Assembly: GCF_963921235.1 (NCBI RefSeq)
Contig: NC_086097.1
Span: forward strand, 62,746,001 to 62,810,000
Source: Mobula hypostoma
Taxonomy: Eukaryota
Length of the DNA stretch: 64,000 nt
Direction of reading: 5' to 3'
Positions within the stretch are counted from its first letter, which is position 1. Each line of letters opens with the position of its first letter. Shown here in pieces: positions 17,010-61,700 of this stretch. The notes under the pieces were generated by a model. It saw only the letters and a list, made by a program, of their open reading frames with translations. It did no database searches and was not told the DNA's origin. The translations under genes were made by a program, and so were the position numbers.

Positions 17010-17224
17010 CTACACACAAAATGCTGGAGGAACTCAGCAGGCCAGGCAGCATCCATGGAAAAGAGTAAACAGTCAACGTTTCGGGCCAAGACCCTTCAGC
17101 AGGACTTTGGACTGAAACGTCGACTGTTTACTCTTTTCCATGGATACTGCCTGGCCTCCTGAGTTCCTTCAAAATTTTGTGTGTATTCCATTGGTTTCCA
17201 GCATCTTCAGATTTTCTCTTTTTT
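17010..17224. mobile_element. 215-bp fold-back PLE pseudo-LTR insertion
   Basis: An inverted pLTR (17010-17106) is joined to a direct pLTR; 12-bp TSD atgaaacaaagg at 16998-17009 and 17225-17236. Confidence 0.85.
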
Positions 17225-17716
17225 ATGAAACAAAGGGTGCCTCTGCCTTTACCTGACACCCCCACTCAGTGGAAGCAGTGGAAGATGAAGTTCTAGGGCT
17301 GAAGTGCTGAGTCCAGAGTGCAGGGAGTGATGTCTCTGGAGAGCAGAGTACACTGCAATCCAAGTTGGTCCAAACTTTCCATATATCTAATACTCTCAGA
17401 TCCCGGTGAACCTCTTCTACACCATCTCCAAAGCCTCCTCAGCCTTCCCATAGCATGGTAATCAGACTGCATACAATGTGGCCGGAACAAGGTTTTATAC
17501 AGCTGCAATAGAAAGAGAAAATTTGGGGAATGAAACAATCAGTAAATGGGGAGAATTTTCTTTTTCTTTTTTTTATTTTTCCAATACTTTTTTGATTTCT
17601 ACATAGAAGAAGACAGAGTCCAAGAGAATACATATTATAAAGCAAAAGAAAAAATATAATAATACCAGATACAGTATATATAATATCATATTAACAAACT
17701 CCTTACTCTATATTCA

Positions 17717-18925
17717 CAAACAACAGGAATTCTGCAGATGCTGGAAATTCAAGCAACACACATAAAAGTTGCTGGTGAACGCAGCAGGTCAGGCAGCATC
17801 TCTAGGAAGAGGTGCAGTCGACGTTTCAGGCCGAGACCCTTCGTCAGGATGAACTGAAGGAAGAGTGAGTAAGGGATTTGAAAGTTGGAGGGGGAGGGGG
17901 AGATGCAAAATGATAGGAGAAGACAGGAGGGGGAGGGATAGAGCCGAGAGCTGGACAGGTAATAGGCAAAAGGGATACGAGAGGATCATGGGACAGGAGG
18001 TCCGGGAAGAAAGACAAGGGTGGGGGGGGGACCCAGAGGATGGGCAAGGGGTATATTCAGAGGGACAGAGGGAGAAAAAGGAGAGTGAGAGAAAGAATGT
18101 GTGTATAAAAATAAGTAACAGATGGGGTACGAGGGGGAGATGGGGCATTAGCGAAAGTTAGAGAAGTCGATGTTCATGCCATCAGGTTGGAGGCTACCCA
18201 GACGGAATATAAGGTGTTGTTCCTCCAACCTGAGTGTGGCTTCATCTTTACAGTAGAGGAGGCCGTGGGTAGACATGTCAGAATGGGAATGGGATGTGGA
18301 ATTAAAATGTGTGGCCACTGGGAGATCCTTTCTCTGGCAGACAGAGCGTAGATGTTCAGCAAAGCGGTCTCCCAGTCTGCGTCGGGTCTCATCAATATAT
18401 AAAAGGCCACATCAGGAGCACCGGACGCAGTATATCACCCCAGCTGACTCACAGGTGAAGTGTTGCCTCACCTGGAAGGACTGTTTGGGGCCCTGAATGG
18501 TGGTAAGGGAGGAAGTGTAAGGGCATGTGTAGCACTTGGTCCGCTTACACGGATAAGTGCCAGGAGGGAGATCAGTGGGGAGGGATGGGGGGGACGAATG
18601 GACAAGGGAGTTGCGTAGGGAGCGATCCCTGTGGAATGCAGGGGGGGGGAGGGAAAGATGTGCTTAGTGGTGGGATCCCGTTGGAGGTGGTGGAAGTTAC
18701 AGAGAATAATATGTTGGACCCGGAGGCTGGTGGGGTGGTAGGTGAGGACCAGGGGAACCCTATTCCTAGTGGGGTGGCGGGAGGATGGAGTGAGAGCAGA
18801 TGTACGTGAAATGGGGGAGATGCGTTTAAGAGCAGAGTTGATAGTGGAGGAAGGGAAGCCCCTTTCTTTAAAAAAGGAAGACATCTCCGTGTTCCTAGAA
18901 TGAAAAGCCTCATCCTGAGAGCAGA
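17717..18925 (-). mobile_element. 5'-truncated Neptune-type Penelope-like element inserted in the L1 3' UTR
   Basis: 13-bp TSD tactctatattca at 17704-17716 and 18926-18938; encodes FFKERGFPSSTI...RVPLVLTYHP and a frameshifted GIY-YIG domain, followed by the pLTR. Confidence 0.92.
17816..17851 (-). ncRNA. Minimal type I hammerhead ribozyme motif in PLE pLTR (stem I weakened)
   Basis: Minus strand catc-CTGACGA-agg gtctcgg cct-GAAA-CGTC-gact. Confidence 0.7.
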
Positions 18926-21900
18926 TACTCTATATTCATATAGATTAGATTAATTTGTATATTAGAATATAAACTATTTTATTAAAAGAAGATCTACACC
19001 CACTACCAAAGTCGAAGCCGTTTGGAAAAAAAAAGAGAAAAGAACTTATCAGATAATAAAATATGCTATTAACCAACTTCTGTACTTTACTGAGAAGTCA
19101 AAGATTATGAAAATAATTTAAAAACGGCCCCCAAATTTTGAAAATCTTGGTTAGATTCAGAAATTGAACAACGAATCTTTTCTAAATTTAGGCATGCCAT
19201 AACATCCCGTAACCACTGAGCATGATTAGGCAGAACAGCATCCTTCCATTTAAACAAAAGCGCCCTTCTAGTCATAAGAGAGATAAAAGCCAGAATGTGC
19301 AAATCAGATGTCTTCAAAATTATATCTTTGCTTCCAACAATACCAAATAGGGCAGTCAAAGGATTAGGCTTAAAATTTACTTTAAAGAGTACAGAAAAAG
19401 TTTGGAATACTTCCTTCCAATATTTTCCAAGATGTGGACATGTCCAAAACATATGAATAAATGAAGCTTCTCCATTGTTACATCTATCACAGTAGGGAGA
19501 TATATCCATATAAAAATGAGATAACTTATCCTTGGTCATATAAGCCCTACGAACCACTTTAAATTGTAGGAGGGAATGACGAGGACATAACGATGAAGTA
19601 TTAATCGATTTAAAAATCTCATTCCAAGTTTCTTCAGAAATTGAAGTCTGTAAATCTTGTTCCCAAAGATTTTTGATTTTGTCTAAAGAATAATTTCTTA
19701 TTCCCAACAACATATCATAAATACTGGATATTGAACTATTATAAAATGATTTCATCTGATACGTTCTTATCAGGACTATTAGGAAATGTATATAATTGAG
19801 ATCGCAGAAAATCTCTAATTTATAAGTACCAAAAAAATCATTTTTTGGTAAACTATATTTAGTTGACAATTGTTCAAACGAAGAAAGACTTCCTCCAACA
19901 AAGAGATCCTGGAAACATGTAATGTTCAATCCTTTCCATTGTTTAAAAACTACATCAGTCATAGAAGGCTTAAAAAATAATTTTAAAAAATGGGACTAGA
20001 AAGGGAAAATTTCAATAAACCGAAGTGTTTTCTAAATTGTATCCAAATCCTCAAAGTATGCTTGACTACCACATTTTCAGTTATCTTACGTAAGGATAAA
20101 GGAAGTGAAGTTCCCAAAAGAAAGATAGTAGAAAATTTATTAACCGAGTTAGCTTCTAAAGAAACCCTCCCGGGACAGTCCTCATGATTAATACAGTATA
20201 ACCAAAACGTGAGATTCCGTATATTAGCTGCCCAGTAATAAAACCTAAAATTTGGTAAAGCTAAACCTCCATTCTTGTTAACTTTCTGGCGATGGACTTT
20301 ATTTAATCGAGAATGTTTATTTTTCCATATGTGGGAGGATAAAATAGAGTCCAGAGAGTCAAAAAAGGATTTAGGAATAAAAACAGGTAAAGCCTGAAAG
20401 AGGTATATAAATTTAGGTAAAACATTCATTTTAATAGAATTAATTTGACCAATCAATGATAACAAAAGGGACGACCAATTTGATGATGTTCTTTTTACAT
20501 AGCAATTTAATAAAGTAAGAAAATTTTCTTTAAATAGGTATTTATAATTCTTAGTAATTGTTACCCCCAAATAAGTGAATTGGTTTCTTACAATTTTAAA
20601 AGGAAGGTTAATATCAGTTAATAGCAAATTATTCAAAGGAAAAAGTTGACTCTTGTCTAAGTTCAGTTTATATCCAGAAAACTGACTAAAGCAAGAGAGT
20701 AAAGAAAGCACAGAAGATAATGAAGTTTCGACATTAGAGATGCAAATCAATAAGTCATCCGCATAAAGTGAAACATTGTGGATAGTACCCTTTCGTAAAA
20801 TACCAGTGATATCATTAGATTCTTGACAAGCAATAGCTAAAGGTTCTAAAGCCAGGTCAAAGAGCAAAGAACCCAAAGGGCAACCTTGACTGGTTCCACG
20901 TTGAAGTTTAAATGGTTTAGAATGCTGAGAATTAGTGAGAACCCGAGCAAAAGGGGATAAATACAATAATTTAATCCATTCAATAAAGTTGGACCCAAAA
21001 TTAAATTTTTCTAAGATTTTAAATAAATAACGCCATTCAACCCAATCAAAAGACTTCTCAGCATCTAAGGATATCACACACTCTGATATCTCCTTCGAAG
21101 GAGAGTAGATAACATTTAATAATCGATGAATATTAAAATGAGAATAACGATTTTTAATAAAACCAGTCTGATTGTCAGAAATGATAGATGGTAAGTTATC
21201 TTCCATCCTGTGGGCCAGAATTTTAGATAGAATTTTAACATCAACATTAAGTAAGGAAATTGGTCTATATGAAGAACATTCAGTTGGGTTCTTTTTTTTT
21301 AAGGATAAACAAAATAGAAGCTTCATAAAAAGATTGTGGCAACCAACCTAGCTTAAAAGCATCTGAAAAAACTGAACATAAATGAGGCATAAGCAAAGAA
21401 GAAAAAGCCTTATAAAATTCTCCAGAAAATCCGTCAGGACCTGGAGCTTTCCCTGAATGCAGTGAACGTACAGCCTCGGCTCTTTCTTTGTGAGAAATAC
21501 ATTGATCCAGCTGTTTTCTGTTATCAACAGAAAACGTAGGGATATTTATTTGGTCTAAAAATTTATCCATTACAGTATTATATTTAAGAAGATCAGAACT
21601 ATAAAGCTTAGAATAAAATTCTCTAAAAGTATCATTTATTTCTAAATGATCAATTGTCCTAATACCATCAGCTTTGTAAATTTCTTTAATCTGTCATTTA
21701 GCACTAGAAGTTTTAATTTGGTTAGCCAATAATTTACCTGTTTTATCTCCATGATTATAAAATTGACTTTTATCCTTTAGGAGTTGAGTTTCAATAGGGT
21801 ATGTTAATAAAAAAAATCATGTTTAGTTTTAATTTCAACCCATCTTTTATATAAAACAGGCTCTGAAGTTGAAGCATATACTTCATCTAATTGTTTCAGC

Positions 21901-22423
21901 TGATTAGCTAAATTAATTCTCTCTTTATTAGCTTTTTCTTAACACTTGTAGTATAAGAAATGATTTGTCCTCTAATATATGCTTTAAAGGCATCCCATAT
22001 GACAAGACTAGAAGTCTCCCCCACTGTGTTTGTCTTCAAAAAAAGAGAGTAATTTGCCTCTCCAAGAACTTTAAGAAATCTTTGTCAGATAACAAAGTTA
22101 AATTAAAACACCAGAATCTGTTTGTCTGAGGAAAACCAGAAAGATTTATGGATAAAAGCACAGGAGCATGGTCAGAAATAGCAATCTCTTTATATTCACA
22201 AGATTGAACTAATAGAATCATTTGGTTATCAATAAATAGTCAATTCTGGAATACGTATGATGAACATGAGATAAAAATGAATATCCTCTATCTGCTGGAT
22301 TTAAGAAATGACATATATCAACAATAAACAACAGGAATTCTGCAGATGCTGGAAATTCAAGCAACATACATCAAAGTTGCTGGTGAACGCAGCAGGCCAA
22401 GCAGCATCTATAGGAAGAGGCGC

Positions 22424-22459
22424 AGTCGACGTTTCAGGCCGAGACCCTTCGTCAGAACT
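22424..22459 (-). ncRNA. Minimal type I hammerhead ribozyme motif in PLE pLTR
   Basis: Minus strand agtt-CTGACGA-agg gtctcgg cct-GAAA-CGTC-gact. Confidence 0.8.
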
Positions 22460-22751
22460 AACTGAAGGAAGAGTAAGTAAGGGATTTGAAAGCTGGAGGG
22501 GGAGGGGGAGATGCAAAATGATAGGAGAAGACAGGAGGGGGAGGGATAGAGCCAAGAGCTGGACAGGTGATAGGCAAAAGGGGATACGAGAGGATCATGG
22601 GACAGGAGGCCTAGGGAGAAAGACGGGGGGGGGTGACCCAGAGGATGGGCAAGAGGTATATTCAGAGGGACAGAGGGAGAAAAAGGAGAGTGAGAGAAAG
22701 AATGTGTGCATAAAAAGGAGTAACAGCTGGGGTACGAGGGGGAGGTGGGGC

Positions 22752-23309
22752 CTAGCGGAAGTTAGAGAAGTCAATGTTCATGCCATCAGGTTGGAGGCTA
22801 CCCAGACGGAATATAAGGTGTTGTTCCTCCAACCTGAGTGTGGCTTCATCTTTACAGTAGAGGAGGCCGTGGGTAGACATGTCAGAATGGGAATGGGATG
22901 TGGAATTAAAACATGTGGCCACTGGGAGATCCTGCTTTCTCTGGCGGACAGAGCGTAGATGTTCAGCAAAGCGGTCTCCCAGTCTGCTTCGGGTCTCACC
23001 AATATATAAAAGGCCACATCGGGAGCACCGGACGCAGTATATCACCCCAGTCGACTCACAGGTGAAGTGATGCCTCACCTGGAAGGACTGTTTGGGGCCC
23101 TGAATGGTGGTAAGGGAGGAAGTGTAAGGGCATGTGTAGCACTTGTTCCGCTTACACGGATAAGTGCCAGGAGGGAGATCAGTGGGGAGGGATGGGCGGG
23201 ACGATTGGACAAGGGAGTTGTGTAGGGAGCGATCCCTGCGGAATGCAGAGAGAGGGGGGGAGGGAAAGATGTGCTTAGTGGTGGGATCCCGTTGGAGGTG
23301 GCGGAAGTT
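22752..23309 (-). pseudogene. PLE ORF C-terminus (Cys-rich linker plus GIY-YIG endonuclease), left arm
   Basis: PCKRNKCYTC...GVIYCVRCSRCGLLYIGET...RFAEH...LEEQHLIFRLGSLQPDGMN; frame open but 5'-truncated with no RT. Confidence 0.9.
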
Positions 23310-23837
23310 ACTAAGCACATCTTTCCCTCCCCCCCTCTCTCTGCATTCCGCAGGGATCGCTCCCTACACAACTCCTTTGTCCATTCGTCCCCCCCATCCC
23401 TCCCCACTGATCTCCCTCCTGGCACTTATCCGTGTAAGCGGAACAAGTGCTACACATGCCCTTACACTTCCTCCCTTACCACCATTCAGGGCCCCAAACA
23501 GTCCTTCCAGGTGAGGCATCACTTCACCTGTGAGTCGACTGGGGTGATATACTGCGTCCGGTGCTCCCGATGTGGCCTTTTATATATTGGTGAGACCGGA
23601 CGCAGACTGGGAGACCGCTTTGCTGAATATCTACGCTCTGTCCGCCAGAGAAAGCAGGATCTCCCAGTGGCCACACATTTTAATTCCACATCCCATTCCC
23701 ATTCTGACATGTCTATCCACGGCCTCTTCTACTGTAAAGATGAAGCCACACTCAGGTTGGAGGAACAACACCTTATATTCCATCTGGGTAGCCTCCAACC
23801 TGATGGCATGAACATTGACTTCTCTAACTTCCGCTAG
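23310..23837 (+). pseudogene. PLE ORF C-terminus (GIY-YIG endonuclease), right arm
   Basis: Mirror copy of the left-arm ORF (VIY...YIGETGRRLGDRF). Confidence 0.9.
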
Positions 23838-24129
23838 GCCCCACCTCCCCCTCGTACCCCAGCTGTTACTCCTTTTTATGCACACATTCTTTCTCTCACT
23901 CTCCTTTTTCTCCCTCTGTCCCTCTGAATATACCTCTTGCCCATCCTCTGGGTCACCCCCCCCCGTCTTTCTCCCTAGGCCTCCTGTCCCATGATCCTCT
24001 CGTATCCCCTTTTGCCTATCACCTGTCCAGCTCTCGGCTCTATCCCTCCCCCTCCTGTCTTCTCCTATCATTTTGCATCTCCCCCTCCCCCTCCAGCTTT
24101 CAAATCCCTTACTCACTCTTCCTTCAGTT

Positions 24130-24165
24130 AGTCCTGACGAAGGGTCTCGGCCTGAAACGTCGACT
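24130..24165 (+). ncRNA. Minimal type I hammerhead ribozyme motif in PLE pLTR (intact core)
   Basis: agtc-CTGACGA-agg gtctcgg cct-GAAA-CGTC-gact: stem I agtc/gact, stem II agg/cct, palindromic ACGT in place of stem III; predicted cleavage after C24161. Confidence 0.85.
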
Positions 24166-25406
24166 GCGCCTCTTCCTATAGATGCTGCTTGGCCTGCTGC
24201 GTTCACCAGCAACTTTGATGTATGTGGCTTATATCAACAATACCACATTTCATTAGAAATGAATGGATAAACAAAGCTGATTTATTAAGTGTCACTGGTT
24301 TAGAAGAAGACTGATCTAAAACTGGATCTAACCAGCAATTAAAGTCTCCTGCCATCACCAATGCGCGCAAACTCAGATCAGGCAAAAACAAAAAAAAAAC
24401 GCTCAAAGATTCTGGATCATTTATATTTGGAGCATAAACATTAGCAAATACCAACAATTTATTTTCTAATTTCCCTGATACTATAACAAATCGTCCATTA
24501 GTATCAGAAACAACCTTGTTTTGAACAAAGGGAACTGTATTTCCTATAAAAATTGAAACTTCTCCAGCTTTGGCCTGAAAACTTGAATGAAAGTCAACCC
24601 TCTCCATCAGCTAAAAAGGTGTGAGTTATCAGAATTGTGTACATGGGTTTCTTGTAAAAAAAAAATTGAGACCTTAAATTTTTTAATATAGGCAAAAATC
24701 TTATTTTGTTTCAAAGGATGATTTAATCCTTTCACGTTAAGACTAAGTAACTTAATATTATAATCCATTTTATTATTATTTAAAAGAAAAGTTAAAAGGA
24801 TAATCTTTAAGAAGATTAGTAAAACTAAACAATAACCTATGAGATAAGGAAACCAAACAACAGGTTTGACTAAGGATCCCAAACAGCTTCAAAGAAAAAA
24901 AAACCCAAACACTCTCCCCCTTCCCAAAGAGAGAAAGTCGACCAAAGAAAGTCGACGCCTACAACTAATAGCGATATCCCCCCAAAAATCCTGCTGGCTT
25001 AGCTCCAAATAAATTACAAAGTTTGAAATATTCCAACCTAGTCAGAACAACAGATAATAAAGAAACAGTTAATTCTGAAATCAAAAACTCTAGAAAAGTA
25101 AGTATAATACAAAATAATATGGACACTCAGAATATTGGCTTATTAAAATCTTATTCTCAAAGTAAAACCGTAAGAGGTTCTAAAAGAAAATTAACTACAA
25201 GATTCACCAGAGACAAAATACACAATTATTCATGTAAGTTTTTGTTAAACAGCTCTAACATGACACTTTTAAACTTAGCAGACAAAGTAATAGCACACTA
25301 AAGTCTTTCTCAAAATAAATCCTTACAAAGTTCAAAAAGAAAGAGTTAAGTACAAAGTTTAGCAAAGGTAAAATAAACAGTTATTCATGTAACAAATAAT
25401 AAGCAA

Positions 25407-26257
25407 TCACCTTACTGACTCTAAATATTTCTGGGCCTGGAGACTCTAATGGAAGCATTTTTGTGATCCATCCTGCAGTGTAATTCTGAGCTTCGCCGGA
25501 TACAGTAGAGAAGTTTTTAAATCCTTGTTGAAGAACTCTGACATGACGTTTTTAAACTTAACACGCTCCCTCATAATCTCTGCTGAGAAATCTACAATGA
25601 TTCTAATCTTTTTTCCATTAAAATTAATTACACCTTTCCGATGAGATTCACGAATTATACGGTCCTTTGTTTGAAACTCATGAAAAGCGATTACCACTGA
25701 ACGAGGTTTGCTTGCAAACATTCTATTTCCAGGTACTCTGTGCGCTCAGTCGACCATTGGTGTCGATTTTAAAATATCAGGAAATAACTGAACCAGAAAG
25801 TTTGTAAAAAATTCTGTAGGACGATCACCTTCAGTTAACTCTTTGAGACCAAGAATTCGTACGTTATTCCTTCTATGTCTGTTTTCTAAATCAGTAATCT
25901 TCTGTCTTAGTTCGTTGTTAACCTTGGATTGTTTTTCATAACGCTTTTGCAGATCGTCCATTTTCTCATCCAGAATCGACACGATTTCTTCATTCTCTTT
26001 ATTCGTTTATCTTGCTCAGTTGAGATTTCTTGAATAGAATCCAGTTTTGTACTTAATTGTTTAATTTCAGAGCCAAGTTGTTGAAACTCTTCGGAGGATT
26101 CCTTCCTGAATCGTTAAAATTCCTCGGAGGATTCTTTTCTGAATCGCTGATTTTCCTCAGACGCTTCATTTCTGTGCTTTTGCATCAATTCGATAATAGC
26201 ATCCAAAGACGTAGAAGAATCTTCTTCTTTTTTACCTTTAGCAGTTCTTGTCGTCAT
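25407..26257 (-). pseudogene. L1 ORF1p (coiled coil, RRM, CTD), frameshifted
   Basis: ATG at 26257 (MTTRTAKGKKK), then DLENRHRRNNVRILGLKE, PRSVV, KIRIIVDFS and LLYPAKLRIT in successive fragments. Confidence 0.85.
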
Positions 26258-26603
26258 AGTGTCAAATCAGGTTGGAAAGTAAGAAAAGTAAAGTAAACTA
26301 GGAGCGGCTATATAATGCTGTTATTCCATCCACCGCCAGCAGGAAGTCTAATGGGGAGAATTTTGAGATTCACTTTGTACAGAGCTCATCAAATTTGGTA
26401 GAGCACTTGAGAGAAGTTTTCTGGAGCTGTCAATAGATATGACTGATTGGCTCAAAATTGACTTTGATTTGACTTTTCATTCACACATTGTTAGTTCCTG
26501 ACCTTGAAGCAATGTGGGCAATGTTAAGAAGCAATACAAGCTATTTTCAGCAGACCTACTATGTTTAAGAATGAATTTTAACCCTGCCCAACCTGTGGAA
26601 ACA

Positions 26604-26739
26604 GGGTCCTGCTGAAGGATCTCAGCCCAAAATGCCAACTGTACTTTTTTTCCATAGATGCTGCTTGGCCTGCTGAGTTCCTCCAGCATTTTGTGCGTGT
26701 TGCTTGGATTTCCAGCATCTGCAGATTTTCTCATTTGTG
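26604..26739 (+). mobile_element. Solo PLE pseudo-LTR with a decayed hammerhead motif
   Basis: gtcctgctgaaggatctcagcccaaaatg...tccatagatgctgcttggcctgctgagttcctccagcattttgtg...ctgcagattttctc. Confidence 0.8.
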
Positions 26740-27099
26740 AAGAGATGGTTAAGATTTCCTGTTCAGATGTTCAGATGTGACTTGAGATATCCCTGTCCAG
26801 TGACAATATAATCATGCTGCTTTCTGATTACAGAAGAGGTTTTCACCACATGAAAACAGGTACCTTATTCATATGTAGGTATTGAACTCACAGGACGTCA
26901 TTCAGATTGCAATGAGGTTTTAGCTGCAGGCCATCACAGCGATGCCACTGCTAAAATGATAGAAGTGCACTAGAAAGAAATTGAGGTTGGTCCCTGCCGT
27001 GGGACTTTATTGATCTTCCTCACTCATTAACCCATTCACCATGATCAGTATTTCTTGTCATATCAGGGGCCTTTCTCTGGGGTCTTCCATCACAGCCCA

Positions 27100-27690
27100 G
27101 TCCACCCAGACAAAGCCCTCCCCACCACTGAGCACACTTACATGGAGTGCTGCCACAAGAAATCAGCATTTATCATTAAATAATGGATCTAATCCAGGAC
27201 ATGCTCTCTTCTGACTACTACCATCAGGCAAGAGGTACAGGAGCCTTAGGTTTCACACAACCAGGTTCAGGAACAGTTATTCTCCTCCAAACATCAGACT
27301 CCTGAACCAGCATGGATAACTTTACTCACCACAAGTCTAAACCATGGTCCTGGAGGAATGTTGTTTTGTCTTTACTGTGTACTGTACCAGCAGTTTATGG
27401 TTGAAATGACAATAAAAAGTGACTTGACTTGACTTGAACCTGATTCTACAACCTACTGATTCACTATCAATTATCTTATTATTCACATTCTCAATATTAA
27501 GTTTTTATTTGCACAATTTGTCTTCTTTTACACATTGGTTATTGTCAATCTTTGTTTTGTATAACTTTTCATACATTCTATTAAACCTCTTTATTTTCCT
27601 GTAAATATCTACAAGGTAATGAAGTTCAAAGTACTACATTGTAACGTATACATACTTTGATAATAAATTCACTTTAAGCTTTGAAATTTG
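27100..27690 (+). mobile_element. Rex1/Babar-like LINE 3' end with a small nested (gactt)n-tailed insertion
   Basis: ccatcaggcaagaggtacaggagccttagg...accaggttcaggaacag (PSGKRYRSL...TRFRNS) and 3' UTR. Confidence 0.7.
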
Positions 27691-28459
27691 AACTTCACTG
27701 GTGACCTCCTGCTGTGGAAAGTACTCCTGTCTCCTGACTATCTAATGATGCCATTAGCTTCAAGCTCAAATTCACCCTAGGACACAAGAGCCTTGCGCTC
27801 AAATTAGTATGGACACCCCCATTCACTCCCTTCACCCAGGCCTAAGGTAAAATTGGATCTTCAGCCTACATAAACATAAACACTAGCTATAATGAAAAAC
27901 ACAATTGTGGTCATCATTTTAATATTATTTATCTTTTTTAAATGTTATAAGGATAATAAACTATCAAATACTATTTGCTTTGTACAAGTGATTAACTGAC
28001 ATTTAAAAAAGCTGCAAATAAAAATATTTAAATGAGACTGCATTTTATTCGGAAAAGAATCTACCACTTTTGAACATCGAGATTTTCATGTATAAATGAT
28101 GGAAAAAGTGAGCATACATCTATGGCAGAATATTCACTTTAAAACTTATGTAAATCAGATATTTACTTGTTATTTGTAAAGATAGAGTCTCGTGAAATCA
28201 GGATTACGTTAGAGGATTCCTGCAGATCTTTTATACGTTGCAGTTGAAATCAATTTGCAATGTGGCACAAACCTCAGTACAAAAATGAATTCTGTTTCAA
28301 TTAAATAATTCTAAATGTCTGGCAAATACTGATTATTGATCTCATCATTCCACAGGGCTTCTTTATTTACGGCTTTCTGCGTAGTCTGGAACAAGAATTC
28401 CTGCATTTTCTGTGACAAGCATTGAAGCCTATCATATGTACTTGCGTTAGATTAATTGG

Positions 28460-28546
28460 CAAACAACAGGAATTCTGCAGATGCTGGAAATTCAAGCAAC
28501 ACCCATCAAAGTTGCTGCGTTCACCAGCAACTTTGATGTGTGTTGC
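28460..28546. mobile_element. 87-bp fold-back insertion of the young PLE terminus
   Basis: caaacaacaggaattctgcagatgctggaaattcaagcaacac..., then its partial reverse complement; TSD ttagattaattgg at 28447-28459 and 28547-28559. Confidence 0.9.
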
Positions 28547-28959
28547 TTAGATTAATTGGTAAGGTTTCATAACAAATTGCTGAGTAAATACTATTTAAAA
28601 CAGTGTTAACCATGCAACAATCAATTGCTATAAACCAGTCTGAGCTCCTAGGGCTGCAGTATTAACCGAGAACGGAAACTGAGTAAAATGCAAAATCTTT
28701 AATTCCACCTGTCCCAAGTATATCTGGTTGGTGCCTCCCCTTTGTGCTATTTAAAAAAAAACATCACAGATGAATCAGTAAGAAAGGATGAGCGGAAGTA
28801 ATTAATCAGCGAGGCTCTTTATAAAACAACGATAAGGTTGTAGGTGTCCAAAGGCTTTGCAAGGTCCCGCAATTAAGGAGGAGCTTTCTAGCTACCTCTG
28901 TTCAGTCATGATATGAAGAGGTCATAGTATCACAGTCCTAATTAGATTATAGAGCAACT

Positions 28960-29680: not shown

Positions 29681-30847
29681 CTGAAAATTTCAAGGAGGGA
29701 GCAACATTCCTTCCATTGCTCTTATCTGAATGAAAGTTTTAGCCATCAAACTGAAGCTGCTCCCCTTTAAGGATTTGTTTCTTGAAAGGTCAGGATAGGG
29801 TTTTAATTTCCAGTACAAATAAGAGACTGAGAGCTACACAGTGACTATGCATAAAATAGCACATTGCTTGGGGAGTTATTAACATGCAAGATAATGTATT
29901 TGAAGTAAATAGGAAGTCTTAAGTGCAGGCAACCCTCTAAAGGTAAATCACAGGCTAAAATCTTCTCTGCAAATTAAGAGGTACTAGTCTTTAATGAAGG
30001 TGATAATTGACCCAGTCTCTGAGCTTCCATTCAGTGATGTTTGATTCCCTCACAGTAAATGGGGGAACGTGCTAGTGAATAATTAGCTGTTAATCTTTTG
30101 TTTGATGCACAGCACAGTATTTTGAATTTACCTTTGCTTTCTGACATAATTTATTCAAATTTCCATCTTAACAATTATACAAATATGTTTTTCTCCACAT
30201 TTTCCCCCAGTATTGCTATTTAGAATTTTAAAAATGAGTATTTAATTTTGTCTACATTTAATTGGGATGATTTTCATTATGCTACATTTCTTGTTTCAAT
30301 ATATTGCAAGGTCACTAAAAGTGTCACTTGCCAATATATTTCATAATTGGCACAGAAGAGAAACAGCACTGATTCCATTTTGCCTTTTGCTGGTAATAAC
30401 ATACACCCATTTTTGTCGCATTAGAGGCAGCCACATTAGTGTGAACTCCAAGCACTATAATACATTCCAGCCCCATGTAAAACAGAAAATGATAGGAACG
30501 CTCAGCAGATTCTGCAGTGAAAAGTGAGAGAGAACAATTAGCGGGCTGCATTTTATACAAAGAGTGGTGGGCTGAGCTTGGATTCCCTACAAATTTATAA
30601 GATTCTGAAACCCTAATCTGATCTATGTGTACTGGATTTTCATTTATGTGATGCTCTACTCAGGCTACCAGAGTTATTTAAATAAATACACCTTGCTTAT
30701 TGAGGACGGTGTGACCGTGCGACACAATTACAGAGGTAGTGTAGGTATTCCAAATGACTCACCTCTAACTGCTTTTATTTGTTTATAATGAACACAGGGC
30801 AAGCTACAGGAGGCCTCATCACTACCAGGAGATGACTTGACAATCTA

Positions 30848-32424
30848 CAGTTGAAGTCAGAAGTTTACATACACCTTAGCCAAATACATTTAAACTCAAT
30901 ATTTTCCACAATTCCTGACATCTAGTCCTAGGAAACATTCCTTGTCTTAGCTCAGTTAGGATCACTAGTTTATTTTAAGAATGTGAAATGTCAGAATAAT
31001 AGTAGAGAGAATGATTTATTTCAGCTTTTATTTCTTTCATCACTTTCCCAGTAGGTCAGAAGTTTATATACTCTTTGTTAGTATTTGGCAGCATTGCCTT
31101 TAAATTGTTTAACTTGGGTCAAACGTTTTAGGCAGCCTTCCACAAGCTTGTCACAGTAAGTTGCTGGAATTTTGTTCCATTCCTCCAGCCAGAACTGGTG
31201 TAACTGAGTCAGGTTTGTAGGCCTCCTTGTTCGCACACGCTTTTTCAGTTCTGCTCACAAATTTTCTATCGGATTGAGGACAGAAAATGTTGTCAATTCT
31301 GGTTCATCCTTGGGAGCAATTTATTTGCGACCGAGCTTTAACTTGCTGGCTGATGTCTTGAGATGCTGCTTCAATATATCCACATAATTTTCCTTCCTCA
31401 TGATGCTATCTATTTTGTGAAGTGCACCAGTCCCTCCTGCAGCAAAGCACCCCTACAACATGATGCTGCCACCCCCATGCTTCACGGTTGGGATGGTATT
31501 CTTCGGCTTGCAAGCCTCACCCTTTTTCCTCCAAACATAACGATGGTCATTATGGCCAAACAGTTCAATTTTTGTTTCATCAGACCAGAGGACATTTCTC
31601 CAAAAAGTAAGATCTTTGTCCCCATGTGCACTTGCAAACTGTAGTCTGGCTTTTTTATGGCAGTTTTGGAGCAGTGGCTTCTTCCTTGCTGAGCAGCCTT
31701 TCAGGTATGTCGATATAGGACTCGTTTTACTGTGGATATAGACACTTGTCTACCTGTTTCCTCCAGCGTCTTCACAAGGTCCTTTGTTGTTGTTCTGGGA
31801 TTGATTTGCACTTTTTGCGCCAAAGTACATTCATCTCTAGGAGACAGAATGTGTCTCCTTCCTGAGCGGTATGAGGACTGCGTGGTCCCATGGTGTTTAT
31901 ACTTGCGTACTATTGTTTGTATAGATGAATGTGGTACCTTCAGGCATTTGGAAATTGCTCCCAAGGATGAACCAGACTTGACTTCATTTTCTGACATCAA
32001 TCTGATAGAGAATTTGTGGGCAGAACTGAAAAAGTCTTTGCGAGCAAGGAGGCCTACAAACCTGACTCAGTTACACCAGTTCTGTCTGGAGGAATGGAAC
32101 AAAATTCCAGCAACTTACTGTGAGAAGCTTGTGGAAGGCTATCCAAAATGTTTGACCCAAGTTAAACAATTTAAAGGCAATGCTACCAAATACTAACACA
32201 GCGTATGTAAACTTCTAACCCACTGGGAAAGTGATGAAAGAAATAAAAGCTGAAATAAATCATTCTCTCTACTATTATTCTGACATTCCACATTCTTAAA
32301 ATAAAGTAGTGATCCTAACTGACCTGAGACAGAGAATGTTTTCTAGGATTAAATGTCAGGAATTGTGAAACACTGAGTTTAAATGTGTTTGGCTAAGGTG
32401 TATGTAAACTTCTGACTTCAACTG
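30848..32424 (-). mobile_element. Sleeping Beauty-family Tc1 transposon, rearranged and non-autonomous
   Basis: Termini cagttgaagtcagaagtttacatacac at both ends; TA on the left flank and TG on the right. Transposase pieces KSGSSLGAISK...VKRVLYRH, WSDETK, KHGGGSIML and NLWAELKK...KGNATKY. Confidence 0.95.
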
Positions 32425-32439
32425 TGTGTTGTCTCTAAC

Positions 32440-33011: not shown

Positions 33012-33751
33012 CTTTGTGTGTAGGGTTGATTGCAAACATTTTGTCACCAGTCAAGGTAATATCATCAATGCACAACTGAGTGTTCACATTTATATTGGTC
33101 AGACAACTTTTTTTTTGGATTGGTTGGCTGTTGCGCAGGCCCCTAGCCTCCGCTGGGCCGCGGCCAGCTGGATAGCTGAGTGGAGACTGCCCCAAACACT
33201 ATGTAGGACAGATGGGGAGAAGACTGTCCACTGGCCTACATGAACAACAGCTAACCTTAAGAAGACACAATCCTCTGTCAAGAAGGAGACAAGTTATCTG
33301 GGAAACTACAAAATTTCTGGCAGAAGCACAAAACAAAAAATCAAGATCACTCTTTGAAGCTTGATTCTCAAAGGAAGACTCTATTAACAAGCTTATTGAA
33401 CTGGATGCAATTTATGAACCTGTATATCTGCTTGATTGGGCTGAGGGGTGAGCCATGAACACCCGGGGAACCAAGGCTCACAATGATTGATACCCAGTGG
33501 TATGGCCAGCAGAGATCACTCAGCTATCCAGTTGGCCGGGACCGAGCGGAGACCAGTGGCCAGCACAACAGCCAACCAATCAGAACAACAAGTCGGACCA
33601 ATATAAACATGAGCACACGGTAGAAACAGCACTCAATTGCACACTGATAATGTCACCTCAACTGGTGATGAAACATTTGCGGCCTACCCTCCAGCCTCGA
33701 CGAACAACCATACAAACAAGCAGCCAACCCGAGCTACCAATCTTTCGAACA
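33012..33751 (+). mobile_element. Second Penelope-like family (Poseidon-like): inverted pLTR, GIY-YIG fragment, direct pLTR
   Basis: ~33185-33422 translates (with frameshifts) DCPKHYVGQMGRRLSTGLHEQQL...WETTKFLAEAQNKKSRSLFEA*FSKEDSINKLIELDAIYEP. 33020-33180 is an inverted copy of ~33518-33690. Possible TSD gatcag(a/g)at. Confidence 0.8.
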
Positions 33752-55549: not shown

Positions 55550-56499
55550 ATCTGCTGTGAACCTGGTGCTCCGGTAGGCAAATTGGAGTAGATCTAAGTT
55601 GCTTCTCAGGCAGGAGTTGATATGTTTCACCACCAACCTTTCAAAACACTTCATCACTGTGGATGGAAGTGCTACTCTGTGGTAGTATTTGACGCAGGTC
55701 ACCACATTCTTCTTGGGCACAGGTATAATTGAAGCCTTCAGGTGGGTACCACACACTGCCAAGGTGAGAGGTTAAAGATCTCAGTAAACACTCCAGTTAG
55801 TTGATCAGCTGTTAGTATTTGCCTAGGTACCCCATCTGGGCTGGATGCTGCTTTTCATGGGTTCACCTTCTTGAAAGCTGCTTGCACGCCAGCTCCAGAG
55901 ACTGAAATCATAGGATCAATGGGGAATGTCGGAGTTTATTATCGTTCCTCCATGTTTTGATCATCAAAGTGAGCGTAGAAGGCATTGAGGTCATCTAGAA
56001 GTGAACCCCTGCTGTCGCTCATGTCACTTAATTTAACTTTATAAGAGGTGATAGTATTCAAGCCCAGCCACAACTGTCAAGCATCCTTCACTAATTCAAT
56101 TTCTTTCCAAAATTGCCACTTTGCCCATGAGATGGCTTTCTGGAGATCGGATCTGGACCTCTTGTAACTTTCTTGGTTACCAGATTTTAATGCCGCTGAT
56201 CGGGCTCTCAGCACATTGTGAATTTCATGATTCATCCAAGGCTTCTGACTGGGGAAGATTCTGAATTACTTTTTGGGGACACATTCATCTACAACTGTTT
56301 AAATAAAGTCCGTTAAACTATGGTGTATTCATTCAGATCCATAGATGAGTCCTTGAACATAGCCCAGTCCACCAACTTGAAGCAATACTGTAGCCACTCC
56401 TCTGCCTCCCATGACCACCTAATCTCTGGAGCTTTGCTCTTTAGCCAAGTGGCATATGCAAGTAGGAGAAAGACTTTTGTAACAATTTACTTTCATGAA

Positions 56500-58715: not shown

Positions 58716-61700
58716 GTCATAGAGAACACTACAGCACAGAAACAGGCCATTTGGCCCATCTAATCCATGCTGAACTATCATCTGCCTAGACCCATTGACC
58801 TGCACCCAGACCATAGCTCTTAACACACCTCCCAACACACCTCCCATCCGCATACATATTTAAATTTCACTCAGGTGTTGAAATCCAACCCGAATCCACC
58901 ACTCCCACTGGCTGCTCGTTCTACACTTTCAACAGCCTCTGAATGAAGAAGTTTCCCCTCATGTTCCCCTTCACCAGTTCACCTTTCATCCTTAACCCAC
59001 CTCCAGTTCTAGTCTCACCCAACCTCAATGAAAATAGCCCTCTTGTATTTACCCTAAGAAAACATCTCATCATTTTGTTGCCTCTATTAAATCTCCCCTC
59101 CTTCTCCTGCACTCTGGGGAATGAAGTCCAGACCTGCTCAACCTTTCCCTAGAACTCAGGTCCTCAAGTCCCAGCAATATCCTTGTAAATTTTCTCTGCA
59201 CTCTTTCAATCCTATTTACATTTTTCCTGTAGATACGTGATCAGAACTGGACATACTACTCTAAATTAGGCCTCACCAATGTTTTATATAACTTCCCGAC
59301 TCCTGTACTCAATACTTTGATTTATAGAGGCCAATGAGCCAAAAGCCTTTTTTACAACCCTGTCTACTGTGACACCACTTTCAATGAATCATGAACCTGT
59401 ATTCTGAGATTTCTCTGTTCTTCCACACTCCTCAGTGCCCTACGACTCACCGTGTAAGTCCTATTCTGGTTTGTCCTCACAAAGTGTAACACCTCACATT
59501 TGCCTGTATTAAGTTCCATGTGTCATTTTCAGCCCATTTTTCCATCTGGTCCAGATCCTGCTGCAAGTTTTAATAGCCTTCCTTGTTCTCTATTATGCCC
59601 CTAACTAGCTGTCAACAACAAATTTGCTGATACAGTATATTACATTATTTTCCAGATTGTTGATATAGATACCGAACAACAATGGACTCAGCACTGATCC
59701 CTTTGGCACACCACTAGTCACAAGCCTCCAGTCAAAAAGGCAACCATCTACTGTCACTCTCTGTCTTCTCCTCTGAAGCCAGTGTCCAATCCACTTTACT
59801 AACCCATATTGAATGGCAAGTGACTGAAGCTTCTTGACCAACCTCCCATGCGAACCTTGTCAAAGGCCTTGCTAAAGTCCATACAGACAACATCCACTGC
59901 CTTGTCTTTATTGACTTCCCTTATAACTTCCTTAAAAAACTTTTTTATGATTGGTTAGGCACAACTACACACACAAAGCTATGTTGACTCTTCCTAATCA
60001 GTCCCCATCCATCCAAATACTTATATATGTGGTCCTTTAGAATACATTCCAATCAGGCTCACTGGCCTGTAATTTCCCAACTTATTTTTAGAGCCTTTCT
60101 TGAACAACAGAACAACATTACTATCCTCCCATCGTCTGGCACATTACCCATTGCTAAGGACATTTTATATATAGCTCTCCTAGGGTCCCTGCAATTTCTG
60201 CACTAGCCTCCCACAAGGTCCAAGTGAATTCCTTGTCAGGCCCTGGGGATTTATCCACCCTAATTTGCCTCAAGACAGCATACATCTCCTCCTCTTTAAT
60301 CTGTATACAGTCCATGAACTCACTGCTGCTTTGCCTAACTTCTCTAGACTCGGTGTCCATCTCCTGAATAAATACAAATGGAAAGAATCCGTTTAAGATC
60401 TCCTCCACCTCCTTTGGCTCCATGCATGGAGGACCCTGTAATCTTCAAGAGGACCAGTTTTGTCCATTGCAATAATTTTGCTCTTAATATATCTGTCAAT
60501 GCCCTTAGGATTCTCCTTCACTTTGTCTGCTAGAGCGAACTCATGTCTTCTTTAAGCCTTCTCAATTTCCTTCTTAAGTGTTTTCTTGCATTTCTTTTAC
60601 TTCATGAGTGCCTCATTTGTTCCTTCCTGCCTATACCTGCTTTGTACCTCTTTCTTCTTCTTACCAAGGGCTTCAGCATCTCTCAAAAACAAAAGTTTGC
60701 TAAACCTGTTAGACTTGCCTTTTATTCTGAAAAGAACAAACAAACTCTACTCTAAAAATTTCACTTTTGAAAGCCTCCCACTTAGCAGCCACACCTTGGC
60801 CTGTAAACAACCTATCCCAATCCACAGCAGCACACACAAAATGCTGGAGGAGCTCAGCAGATCAGGCAGCATCTATGGAAATGAGTAAATAGTCAATGTT
60901 TTGGGCCGAGACCCTTCTTCAGGACTCATTCTACACTTGTCAGATCTTTTCTATTTCCATCAAAATTGGCCTTTCTCCAATATAGAATCTCAGCCTGAGG
61001 ATCAGGCCTAATTTCTCCACAATTATATTGAAACTAATGACATTATGATCACTAAATGCACAGTATTCCCCTACTCAGACTTCTGTCATCAGCCTTGTCT
61101 TGTTCCCTAATAGATCTAGTGTTGAACTCTCTCTAGTTCGGACTTCTTTGAAGTGATGAGGGAAACTTCCCTGAATACATCTGACAAACTTTACCATATC
61201 CAGCACTTTTACAGTATGGGGGTCCCAATCAATATGTGGAATGTAAAAATCACCTACCATCACAATATTATGTTTCTTGCAACAATCTCTAATCTCTCTA
61301 CAAATTTGCTTTTCTAAATCCTGATGACTATTGGGTGCTCCATAATATAAAAATCCCATTAACATGGTAACCCCTTTCTAATTCCTTAGTTCCACCCATA
61401 AAGCCTCAGCAGATATGCTGTCCAATCTCTCCTGTCCGAACATTGCTGTGATTTTTTTCCCTGATTAATAATGCCACCCCTCTCCCTTTAATCACTCTTG
61501 CTATATCATGTGTAAATCAACGAAGCTCTTGAACATTGAGCTGCCAGTCCTGCCCCTCCTGCAACCAAGTCTCATTACAATATCATAATTCCACGTGTTG
61601 ATCCATGCCCTAAGCTCACCTACCTTTCCTACAGTACCCCTTGCATTGAAGTATGCACAACTCAGAACATTATTCCCACCATGCCCAACCTTTTCGAATG

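What the first reader, a model, noticed from the sequence alone, without database searches (positions are those of the whole stretch)
22327..24229. 1.9-kb near-perfect palindrome formed by one Penelope-like insertion, with a GIY-YIG ORF and a hammerhead ribozyme on each strand
Seen: two ~920-bp reverse-complement arms around a 30-nt spacer (23280-23309), one 13-bp TSD around the whole unit, and about 15 substitutions between arms counted by eye. Both arms share variants absent from the sister copy at 17717 (e.g. ctagggagaa, aaaggagtaacagctgggg), so they come from one template. Each arm holds an open ~175-185-codon GIY-YIG frame reading outward and an HHR near its outer end. Known: PLEs often carry an inverted 5'-truncated copy upstream. 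Inference: if this lies inside a host transcript it would fold into ~0.9 kb of dsRNA (endo-siRNA or ADAR substrate) and could silence the family; at DNA level it is a candidate cruciform or fragile site.
Basis: partly seen in the sequence, partly recalled or inferred. Interest (0 to 1): 0.75.

Follow-up and report, generated by a model that had tools for sequence, protein, structure and literature searches.

The report
Head-to-head Penelope retrotransposon insertion
This 1.9-kb mirror-image stretch is two truncated, head-to-head copies of a Penelope-like jumping gene sitting inside a broken LINE-1 element, a known pattern likely laid down in one event when both cut ends of the target DNA primed copying, and nothing tested here shows that it is transcribed or does anything.

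Summary
The palindrome is in the sequence: 920-bp arms with 15 mismatches and no gaps, a 30-nt spacer, and one 13-bp target-site duplication. It interrupts an L1 whose endonuclease frame resumes at the next residue. The arms share 36 substitutions and 13 gap columns against the sister copy, so they come from one template. It is the textbook Penelope-like (PLE) unit: a 5'-truncated copy, an inverted copy and a one-sided 33-nt tail. The linker motif points to the Neptune/Nematis type. Both GIY-YIG frames look dead: neither has a Met before the nuclease core, each lost a conserved His, and 11 of 11 arm differences in the frame change an amino acid. The hammerheads are the known minimal PLE motif. 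Two smaller insertions in the window have the same build but carry the spacer on the tail-less arm. That favours priming from both target nicks over simple snap-back (n=3). Read-level proof of the junctions was inconclusive; transcription, siRNA, editing and fragility are untested. Inverted Penelope copies as an siRNA source are already in print. The scan noted this architecture before, many times in this genome. Ordinary; low interest.

The parts
22314..22326 (.). Left target-site duplication, 13 bp, part of the host L1 endonuclease coding sequence
   Evidence: chance control
22327..22359 (-). 33-nt PLE 3' 'tail', present on this end only
   Evidence: matches the 3' ends of the copies at 17717 and 28460 (D9)
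22360..23279 (-). Left (tailed) arm, 920 bp: 3' part of a PLE, element sense on the minus strand
22423..22460 (-). Minimal type-I hammerhead motif, left arm (core 22455-22428); the base pair closing stem I has changed to G-U
   Evidence: pattern scan; descriptor from PMC4209133 passages; no Rfam hit
22752..23276 (-). Truncated linker + GIY-YIG frame, 174 codons + stop; first Met lies after the GIY-YIG core; conserved His122 changed to Cys
23280..23309 (-). 30-nt spacer: ordinary element sequence continuing the left arm (1 difference from the sister). The turn has a 2-nt microhomology, AC 23310-23311 against GT 23278-23279
23310..24229 (+). Right (inverted, tail-less) arm, 920 bp, element sense on the plus strand
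23313..23837 (+). Truncated linker + GIY-YIG frame, 174 codons + stop; first Met lies after the core; conserved His106 changed to Tyr
24129..24166 (+). Minimal type-I hammerhead motif, right arm (core 24134-24161, predicted cut after 24161)
24230..24242 (.). Right target-site duplication, 13 bp
19105..25745 (-). Host L1-type LINE with stops and frameshifts, interrupted by the insertion: endonuclease pieces on both sides, RT 19986-21347, zinc knuckle 19108-19995, weak ORF1 match 25449-25745
17717..18925 (-). Sister PLE copy, one arm only, tailed, with its own 13-bp TSD (17704-17716, 18926-18938); used as outgroup
28460..28546 (.). 87-bp two-armed insertion of the same family: tail, 22-bp arms, 7-nt spacer in the orientation of the tail-less arm, 13-bp TSD
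17010..17224 (.). 215-bp two-armed insertion of an older related family: 79-bp arms (8 mismatches), 17-nt spacer in the orientation of the tail-less arm, 39-nt tail, 12-bp TSD

Best explanation
It is a pair of truncated, head-to-head copies of an endonuclease-bearing Penelope-like retrotransposon between one 13-bp target duplication inside a broken L1, likely made in a single integration in which both target nicks primed reverse transcription, and likely decaying without function since. Shown by the sequence: one TSD, a tail on one end only, arms from one template, a 2-nt microhomology at the turn, and an L1 frame that resumes in register. Inferred: the GIY-YIG nuclease cut both strands 13 nt apart. 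The top-strand 3' end primed a cDNA from the tail start site and the bottom-strand 3' end primed a second cDNA from the start site 33 nt further in, on the same RNA or an identical one. Both cDNAs stopped early (952-985 and about 920 nt), their 3' ends annealed through the microhomology, and fill-in gave the palindrome. The longer cDNA supplied the spacer. My confidence in the identity (one PLE insertion of known build, real DNA) is about 0.9; in two-ended priming as the route, about 0.55.
For: Anatomy. L1 continuity: the right flank aligns to human L1 endonuclease residues 68-180 (E=1.6e-9); residues 4-27 of the left flank align to 184-207 (E=0.018, weak alone but in exact register). PLE identity: 29 hits among 337 candidates, the best at 92% from a devil-ray genome; 4 of the 5 homologs rescanned carry RT plus a C-terminal GIY-YIG, with RT scores below cut-off. 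[quoted passage not shown] Decay: 11 of 11 arm differences in the frame are non-synonymous, against 76% expected if neutral, whereas arms versus sister show 4 synonymous of 12 (Fisher p=0.09); changes are split 8 and 7 between the arms. Two-ended priming: in 3 of 3 two-armed insertions in the window the inverted arm stops within about 2 nt of the tail boundary. By eye, of 9 one-armed copies aligned, 5 start at the tail, 3 at the tail-less site and 1 is unclear. The spacer runs in the tail-less arm's orientation in 2 of 3, which snap-back of a tailed first strand cannot give directly. In vitro, an anole PLE protein cleaves and extends both target strands and starts at two sites that flank the tail (PMC11167929, main text read).
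Against: Only three two-armed insertions were available. A short spacer between inverted arms can be flipped later by template switching (recalled, no call), which would mimic the orientation result. The large palindrome itself has its spacer in the tailed orientation, so it fits snap-back equally well. Two-ended priming needs two near-identical templates or re-use of one RNA, and neither was shown. The in-vitro data are from a Poseidon-clade element, while the linker motif places this one with Neptune/Nematis. The turn has only 2 Watson-Crick pairs plus 3 G-T pairs (+5.5 kcal/mol when folded as a hairpin), so the join is weak under either model. No read or contig was seen across the junctions.
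Confidence: 0.55

Rival explanations
1. Same single PLE insertion, but made by self-priming: the tailed first-strand cDNA ended at 23311, snapped back on the GT at 23278-23279, copied itself, and was cut or released at the tail boundary before joining the other target end.
For: It explains arm identity at birth without a second RNA. The spacer of the large palindrome is in the tailed orientation, and there is microhomology at the turn. Self-priming is the published reading of PLE inverted junctions, there on an antisense template (PMC3846280 Discussion); the tail has been ascribed to endonuclease resolution of the intermediate (PMC8557442 passage).
Against: It needs an extra step to stop the copy at the tail boundary in 3 of 3 cases. 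It predicts a tailed-orientation spacer, seen in only 1 of 3. Tail-less 3' ends also occur on one-armed copies, so that site behaves as a start site in its own right.
Confidence: 0.3
2. The locus is transcribed (from an unseen host intron or from the upstream L1 5' end on the minus strand) and its 0.9-kb RNA duplex feeds Dicer or ADAR and dampens the family. This can hold together with either origin model.
For: The fold is predicted. In Drosophila, siRNAs map to the inverted parts of rearranged Penelope copies (PMC3681739 passage). The L1 extends about 2 kb upstream of the insertion on the minus strand. An unchecked scan note reports an edited Penelope hairpin in a 3' UTR elsewhere in this genome (e1-9868370); this is a lead only.
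Against: No host exon was found among 232 of 271 frames scanned. The same paper concludes that such siRNAs do not silence Penelope efficiently. The arms have diverged symmetrically with no sign of being kept matched. The family is very abundant (153,941 contigs of one run fitted the 5.5-kb stretch), and two more two-armed copies lie within 6 kb, so one locus is unlikely to matter.
Confidence: 0.08
3. Assembly or sequencing artefact: a fold-back read or a collapsed repeat produced the mirror image.
For: No read-level support was obtained. PLE inverted structures are known to trouble assemblies (PMC8557442 passage).
Against: A fold-back read would mirror the left flank; here the L1 resumes in register after a 13-bp duplication. 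The arms differ at 15 sites split between them, and the tail asymmetry matches two other insertions. For the small one at 28460, contigs of two organisms reach 22-25 nt into the insert on both sides (records 15, 16, 23, 24).
Confidence: 0.03
4. Two independent insertions of different copies, later homogenised by gene conversion between the arms.
For: The family is abundant and a 94%-identical sister lies 4.6 kb away.
Against: There is one TSD around the whole unit and none at the centre; the 49 shared columns are spread along the whole arm; the same build recurs in 3 of 3 cases.
Confidence: 0.02

Closest known systems
Canonical EN+ Penelope-like insertion unit (e.g. Pen2a_Av of Adineta vaga, PMC3846280; general scheme in PMC8557442 Fig. 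2 legend)
   Same: Inverted 5'-truncated copy joined head-to-head, 30-40-bp tail on one end only, TSD around the whole insert, C-terminal GIY-YIG, hammerhead near the 3' end.
   Different: In the described examples the inverted part is typically one pLTR of about 180-210 bp beside a long copy. Here both copies are cut to nearly the same length, so 97% of the insert is arm (920 bp each) and no RT is included.
Neptune/Nematis clades of PLE
   Same: CX2-5CxxC linker before the GIY-YIG (here CX4CxxC), which PMC8557442 states is absent from Penelope/Poseidon.
   Different: Clade not fixed by a tree: no named Neptune or Nematis reference was on hand and the locus holds no RT.
Minimal hammerhead ribozymes of metazoan PLEs (PMC4209133)
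   Same: CUGANGA core, extra base before stem II, GAAA joined straight to GUC through a palindromic ACGU, 4-5-bp stem I.
   Different: Pair 10.1-11.1 is G-U here, not the highly conserved G-C. The two copies are on opposite strands, so they cannot form the tandem dimer in one transcript, and each would be paired with the other arm.
Rearranged Penelope copies with long inverted repeats in transformed Drosophila melanogaster (PMC3681739)
   Same: Long inverted repeats formed by Penelope integration; a possible dsRNA source.
   Different: There siRNAs were sequenced and mapped to the inverted parts; here nothing shows transcription.
L1 twin priming (recalled from memory, no call)
   Same: Second target strand primes a second cDNA; the two are joined by microhomology; one TSD.
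   Different: L1 twin priming inverts a non-overlapping upstream part of one RNA. Here the same 920 nt are present twice and the second start is at a fixed site 33 nt from the first.

Membership tests
EN+ Penelope-like element | [quoted passage not shown] | tested here: met
   C84 and C87 invariant in 12 of 12 rows. His106 and His122 are each present in 10 of 10 homologs aligned (10 of the 29 hits); each arm has lost one of them.
EN+ Penelope-like element | Telomerase-like RT upstream of the endonuclease in the same ORF | tested here: inconclusive
   Absent from the locus (5' truncation). 4 of 5 homologs rescanned have RVT_1 upstream, all below Pfam's cut-off. Kinship with telomerase RT was not tested.
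EN+ Penelope-like element | Inverted 5'-truncated copy, one-sided 30-40-bp tail, TSD around the unit | tested here: met
   against PMC8557442 and PMC3846280 passages.
EN+ Penelope-like element | Direct pLTR tandem flanking a full ORF | tested here: not met
   No direct repeat inside the insert. This is expected for a copy truncated inside the ORF; it bears on completeness, not on origin.
Penelope/Poseidon clade | No CX2-5CxxC linker before the GIY-YIG | tested here: not met
   CX4CxxC is present (C41, C46, C49); clade rule from PMC8557442 passages.
Neptune or Nematis clade | CX2-5CxxC linker before a C-terminal GIY-YIG | tested here: met
Neptune or Nematis clade | RT phylogeny with named members | not tested
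   No named reference sequences were fetched; the locus has no RT.
Minimal PLE hammerhead | Core CUGANGA, stem II, GAAA, UH; palindromic 15.2-16.2; short stem I | tested here: met
   Pattern scan found it in 3 places in the window: both arms and the sister; descriptor.
Minimal PLE hammerhead | G10.1-C11.1 pair; hammerhead fold; Rfam family score | tested here: not met
   G-U at that pair; the minimum-energy fold of the 52-nt piece is not the hammerhead fold in 3 of 3 copies; no Rfam hammerhead match.
Minimal PLE hammerhead | Self-cleavage as a dimer or with protein help | not testable with these tools
   Needs an in-vitro assay.
Hairpin endo-siRNA or ADAR-edited locus | Long intramolecular duplex if transcribed | tested here: met
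   Predicted only.
Hairpin endo-siRNA or ADAR-edited locus | Transcript across both arms; 21-22-nt RNAs or A-to-G clusters from this locus | not testable with these tools
   Only contigs were served, with no strand, level or small RNAs.
Fragile palindrome / cruciform site | Long, near-identical arms with a short spacer, and breakage shown | tested here: inconclusive
   Arm length and identity fit. The 30-nt spacer lies between the 12 bp that stalled forks in eukaryotes and the 52 bp that did not (inverted Alus, PMC7999016 passage). No indel between the arms. Breakage was not testable.

The most novel reading that the evidence does not exclude
Penelope-like elements integrate by two-ended target-primed reverse transcription: each nick primes its own cDNA, one at the tail site and one at the tail-less site, and the two are joined 3'-to-3' by microhomology. 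The orientation of the spacer records which cDNA was longer, so the thousands of two-armed copies in ray and shark genomes give a direct census test of how PLE inverted structures form, a step the literature still calls undefined. This locus would be a large, clean example.
Probability: 0.4. Interest if true: 0.5.

Novelty: new member of a known kind. Interest (0 to 1): 0.2.

Why it matters
As a single locus it matters little: it is a larger than usual example of a described PLE insertion pattern. Its use is as a data point on PLE integration, whose inverted and tailed products are still unexplained. Spacer orientation and the fixed tail boundary can be counted across a genome to separate two-ended priming from snap-back. 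If many such 1-kb hairpins lie in transcripts, they would be a dispersed dsRNA source in cartilaginous fishes, but nothing here shows that for this locus.

Tried and rejected
No whole genome is held for this window, so no census of copies could be made. No RNA holder was listed by the run search. The contig lay on 23250-28750 (4 of 24 listed runs) was swamped: 153,941 contigs in the first run, tables cut (15 joints shown, 1385 not shown). Neither junction of the large palindrome appears, and no empty-site contig for it was shown; this is no evidence either way. The run guessed to be RNA covered 24 of 30 bins and left the unique bins without cover, which is no evidence on expression. Depth in the arms (about 1-3 million against 5-10 in unique bins) shows an abundant family but is not a copy number. 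Pattern scans for more loci: 0 in metagenome contigs, 0 in viral contigs. Rfam: 0 at gathering score. The 70 E-value matches are mostly miRNA-precursor models, with a few snoRNA, cis-regulatory and sRNA models, all below gathering score and all over the hairpin centre; rejected as generic hairpin matches. The search of earlier findings by sequence and near this place returned nothing. My first guess of a Poseidon-clade element was dropped after the linker motif was seen. A G-to-A strand bias among arm changes (8 of 9) is not significant (p=0.18). CpG transitions are 2 of 15 (p=0.29 or 0.04 under an assumed 5x or 10x rate); not pursued. No ADAR-type cluster is frozen in either arm (1 A-to-G in element sense). 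Weak Pfam hits Mis12 (25749-26006) and CysS_C (56080-56265) are below cut-off and were not taken as exons. PMC9977147 and bioRxiv 10.64898/2026.07.22.740005 gave nothing relevant in the passages seen. One PNAS paper on Penelope enzymes was not held.
Full report
Observation. The repeat finder reports arms 22359-23279 and 23310-24230, 98% complementary, 30 nt apart. Direct comparison gives 15 mismatches and no gap. A 13-bp duplication flanks the unit at 22314-22326 and 24230-24242; 0 of 5000 random pairs of 30-nt stretches in the window share even 12 nt. The unit is not symmetric: 33 nt (22327-22359) lie only on the left. A three-way alignment with the sister copy at 17717-18925 shows 36 substitutions and 13 gap columns shared by both arms against the sister, and polarises the 15 arm differences as 8 left and 7 right. 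The arms therefore come from one template and have diverged since.

Host site. The flanks are an L1-type LINE on the minus strand, with RT at 19986-21347 and a zinc knuckle at 19108-19995. Read on the minus strand, the right flank aligns to human L1 endonuclease residues 68-180 and ends in the duplicated word. The left flank, searched separately, aligns from its 4th residue to residues 184-207 (E=0.018), so the frame resumes in register. The L1 has a stop 30 codons further on. A fold-back read would mirror the flank instead, so an artefact is unlikely. I could not confirm the junctions in independent data: no genome is held, and the one contig lay allowed was swamped by family copies and showed neither junction.

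What the arms are. Each holds the last 174 codons of a PLE ORF and its 3' end. Pfam GIY-YIG scores are just below cut-off. A search for longer relatives gave 29 hits among 337 candidates, led by ray and shark proteins, the best at 92% from a devil-ray genome. Of 5 hits rescanned, 4 carry RT upstream of the GIY-YIG, with weak RT scores. An alignment with 10 of the 29 hits shows the two Cys inside the GIY-YIG motif and a CX4CxxC linker. PMC8557442 (passages) gives the first as typical of canonical PLEs and the second as present in Neptune and Nematis but absent from Penelope/Poseidon; no tree was built. The frames look dead: the first Met is residue 162 of the 203-codon open frame, after the nuclease core; the right arm has lost His106 and the left His122, each present in 10 of 10 homologs; and 11 of 11 nucleotide differences between the arms in the frame are non-synonymous, against 76% expected without selection. 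Arms versus sister show 4 synonymous of 12 (p=0.09 for the contrast), a weak hint that the arm differences arose after insertion.

Hammerheads. A pattern scan finds the core in 3 places: both arms and the sister. It fits the minimal PLE hammerhead of PMC4209133 (passages), which was inactive as a monomer and weak as a dimer. Against activity here: pair 10.1-11.1 is G-U, not the conserved G-C; the local minimum-energy fold is not the hammerhead; Rfam finds no hammerhead; and a transcript would hold only one sense copy, paired to the other arm (inference).

Known pattern. [quoted passage not shown] PMC3846280 (passages; Discussion read whole) describes the same unit inside one TSD, calls head-to-head the most frequent arrangement and reads it as self-priming. 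PMC8969392 (passages) lists inverted pLTRs and short extensions as routine. What differs here is only proportion: both copies are cut to nearly the same length.

How it likely formed. The window holds two more two-armed insertions with one TSD each: 28460-28546 (22-bp arms) and 17010-17224 (79-bp arms). In 3 of 3 the tail is on one arm and the other arm ends within about 2 nt of the tail boundary. By eye, of 9 one-armed copies aligned, 5 begin at the tail, 3 at the tail-less site and 1 is unclear. The spacer continues the tailed arm in the large palindrome but the tail-less arm in the other two. Snap-back of a tailed first strand gives only the former, and snap-back of a tail-less strand cannot supply the tail. 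Two cDNAs, one from each target nick, joined by microhomology (2 nt here, 5 nt at 28460) give either. PMC11167929 (parts 1-2 of 4 read, covering the main text; supplements not seen) shows that an anole PLE protein cleaves and extends both strands and starts at two sites flanking the tail, and predicts a dimer; the word 'inverted' occurs there once, for a blocking group. I found no statement of this two-ended model in paper searches, but the subscription reviews on PLE structure were not held, so it may be in print. Limits: n=3; spacers can flip later (recalled); the in-vitro element is of another clade; and the large palindrome alone fits both models. I put two-ended priming at 0.55 and snap-back at 0.3.

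Age and stability. Arm divergence is 1.63% (95% range 0.9-2.7%). Contigs of organism A match the unique sequence with 0 differences in 1834 nt (4 of 8 listed pieces; the other 4 lie in the L1, one with 0 differences and three with 2-13). Organism B differs at 33 of 1975 nt (5 of 8 pieces; 3 L1 pieces left out) and organism C at 89 of 1736 (4 of 8). The insertion is thus about as old as the split from B. It has gained no indel in that time, which does not suggest strong germline fragility. PMC7999016 (passages) reports fork stalling at inverted Alus with a 12-bp spacer but not, in eukaryotes, with 52 bp; 30 bp lies between.

The dsRNA idea. A transcript is predicted to form one long duplex. No host exon was found: 232 of 271 frames of 62 aa or more were scanned (39 inside known repeats left out), with 5 transposon-type hits and 2 weak hits below cut-off. 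Short exons were not tested, so an intron is possible, and the L1's own 5' end lies upstream on the minus strand. Nothing locus-specific was obtainable on RNA. The idea itself is in print: in Drosophila, siRNAs matched the inverted parts of rearranged Penelope copies and did not silence the element efficiently (PMC3681739 passages). A search on Penelope and hammerheads in sharks and rays gave 4 papers, seen as listings only.

Earlier notes of this scan. The same architecture was noted in another genome, and 91 of 295 notes in this genome fit the words searched, 8 of them shown. They include a two-ended reading with a one-sided tail and a report that turns follow microhomology. My note on two-ended priming preceded. 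These are unchecked AI notes and are not counted as support; they do suggest the pattern is common here.

Verdict. Real in the assembly, almost certainly real in the genome, and a new example of a known PLE insertion type. Interest 0.2. The one lead worth keeping is the spacer-orientation census as a test of PLE integration.

Noticed in passing
window 28460-28546: 87-bp two-armed PLE insertion. Contigs of organisms A and B reach into it from both sides; the organism C contig fits only to the end of the TSD (28459) and then runs on about 24 unfitted letters, a hint of an empty site (records 15, 16, 23, 24, 31).
   Followed up: partly
window 17010-17224: 215-bp two-armed insertion of an older PLE-related family with a 12-bp TSD; the full arm ends at the outer edge of hammerhead stem I.
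   Followed up: partly
window 1743, 15800, 26736, 39836, 44476, 55547, 56491, 60826: Eight short one-armed copies of the older PLE 3' end. They start at the tail or at the tail-less site, and several end at the hammerhead's 5' edge. About 12 PLE-derived insertions in 64 kb.
   Followed up: partly
window 17704-18938: The sister copy sits at the 3' end of the same L1, with a 13-bp TSD and a stop in its GIY-YIG frame. All three TSDs of this family in the window are 13 bp and AT-rich.
   Followed up: partly
window 30839-32433: Tc1/mariner-type element with long inverted ends (419 nt at 92% plus 66 nt) and Sleeping Beauty-like transposase pieces.
   Followed up: no
window 33106-33593: Element with 77-nt inverted ends, 83% complementary, 334 nt apart; MITE-like.
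   Followed up: no
window 59608-61377: Minus-strand LINE remnant (RT and endonuclease pieces), with a short PLE copy at 60826 between them.
   Followed up: no
window 22360-24229: 8 of 9 G/C-to-A/T transitions between the arms fall on the same element strand; not significant (p=0.18).
   Followed up: yes
proteins P0003, P0004, P0011, P0027, P0028: Several ray gene models with host-gene names include this PLE frame, suggesting mis-annotation or exonisation.
   Followed up: no
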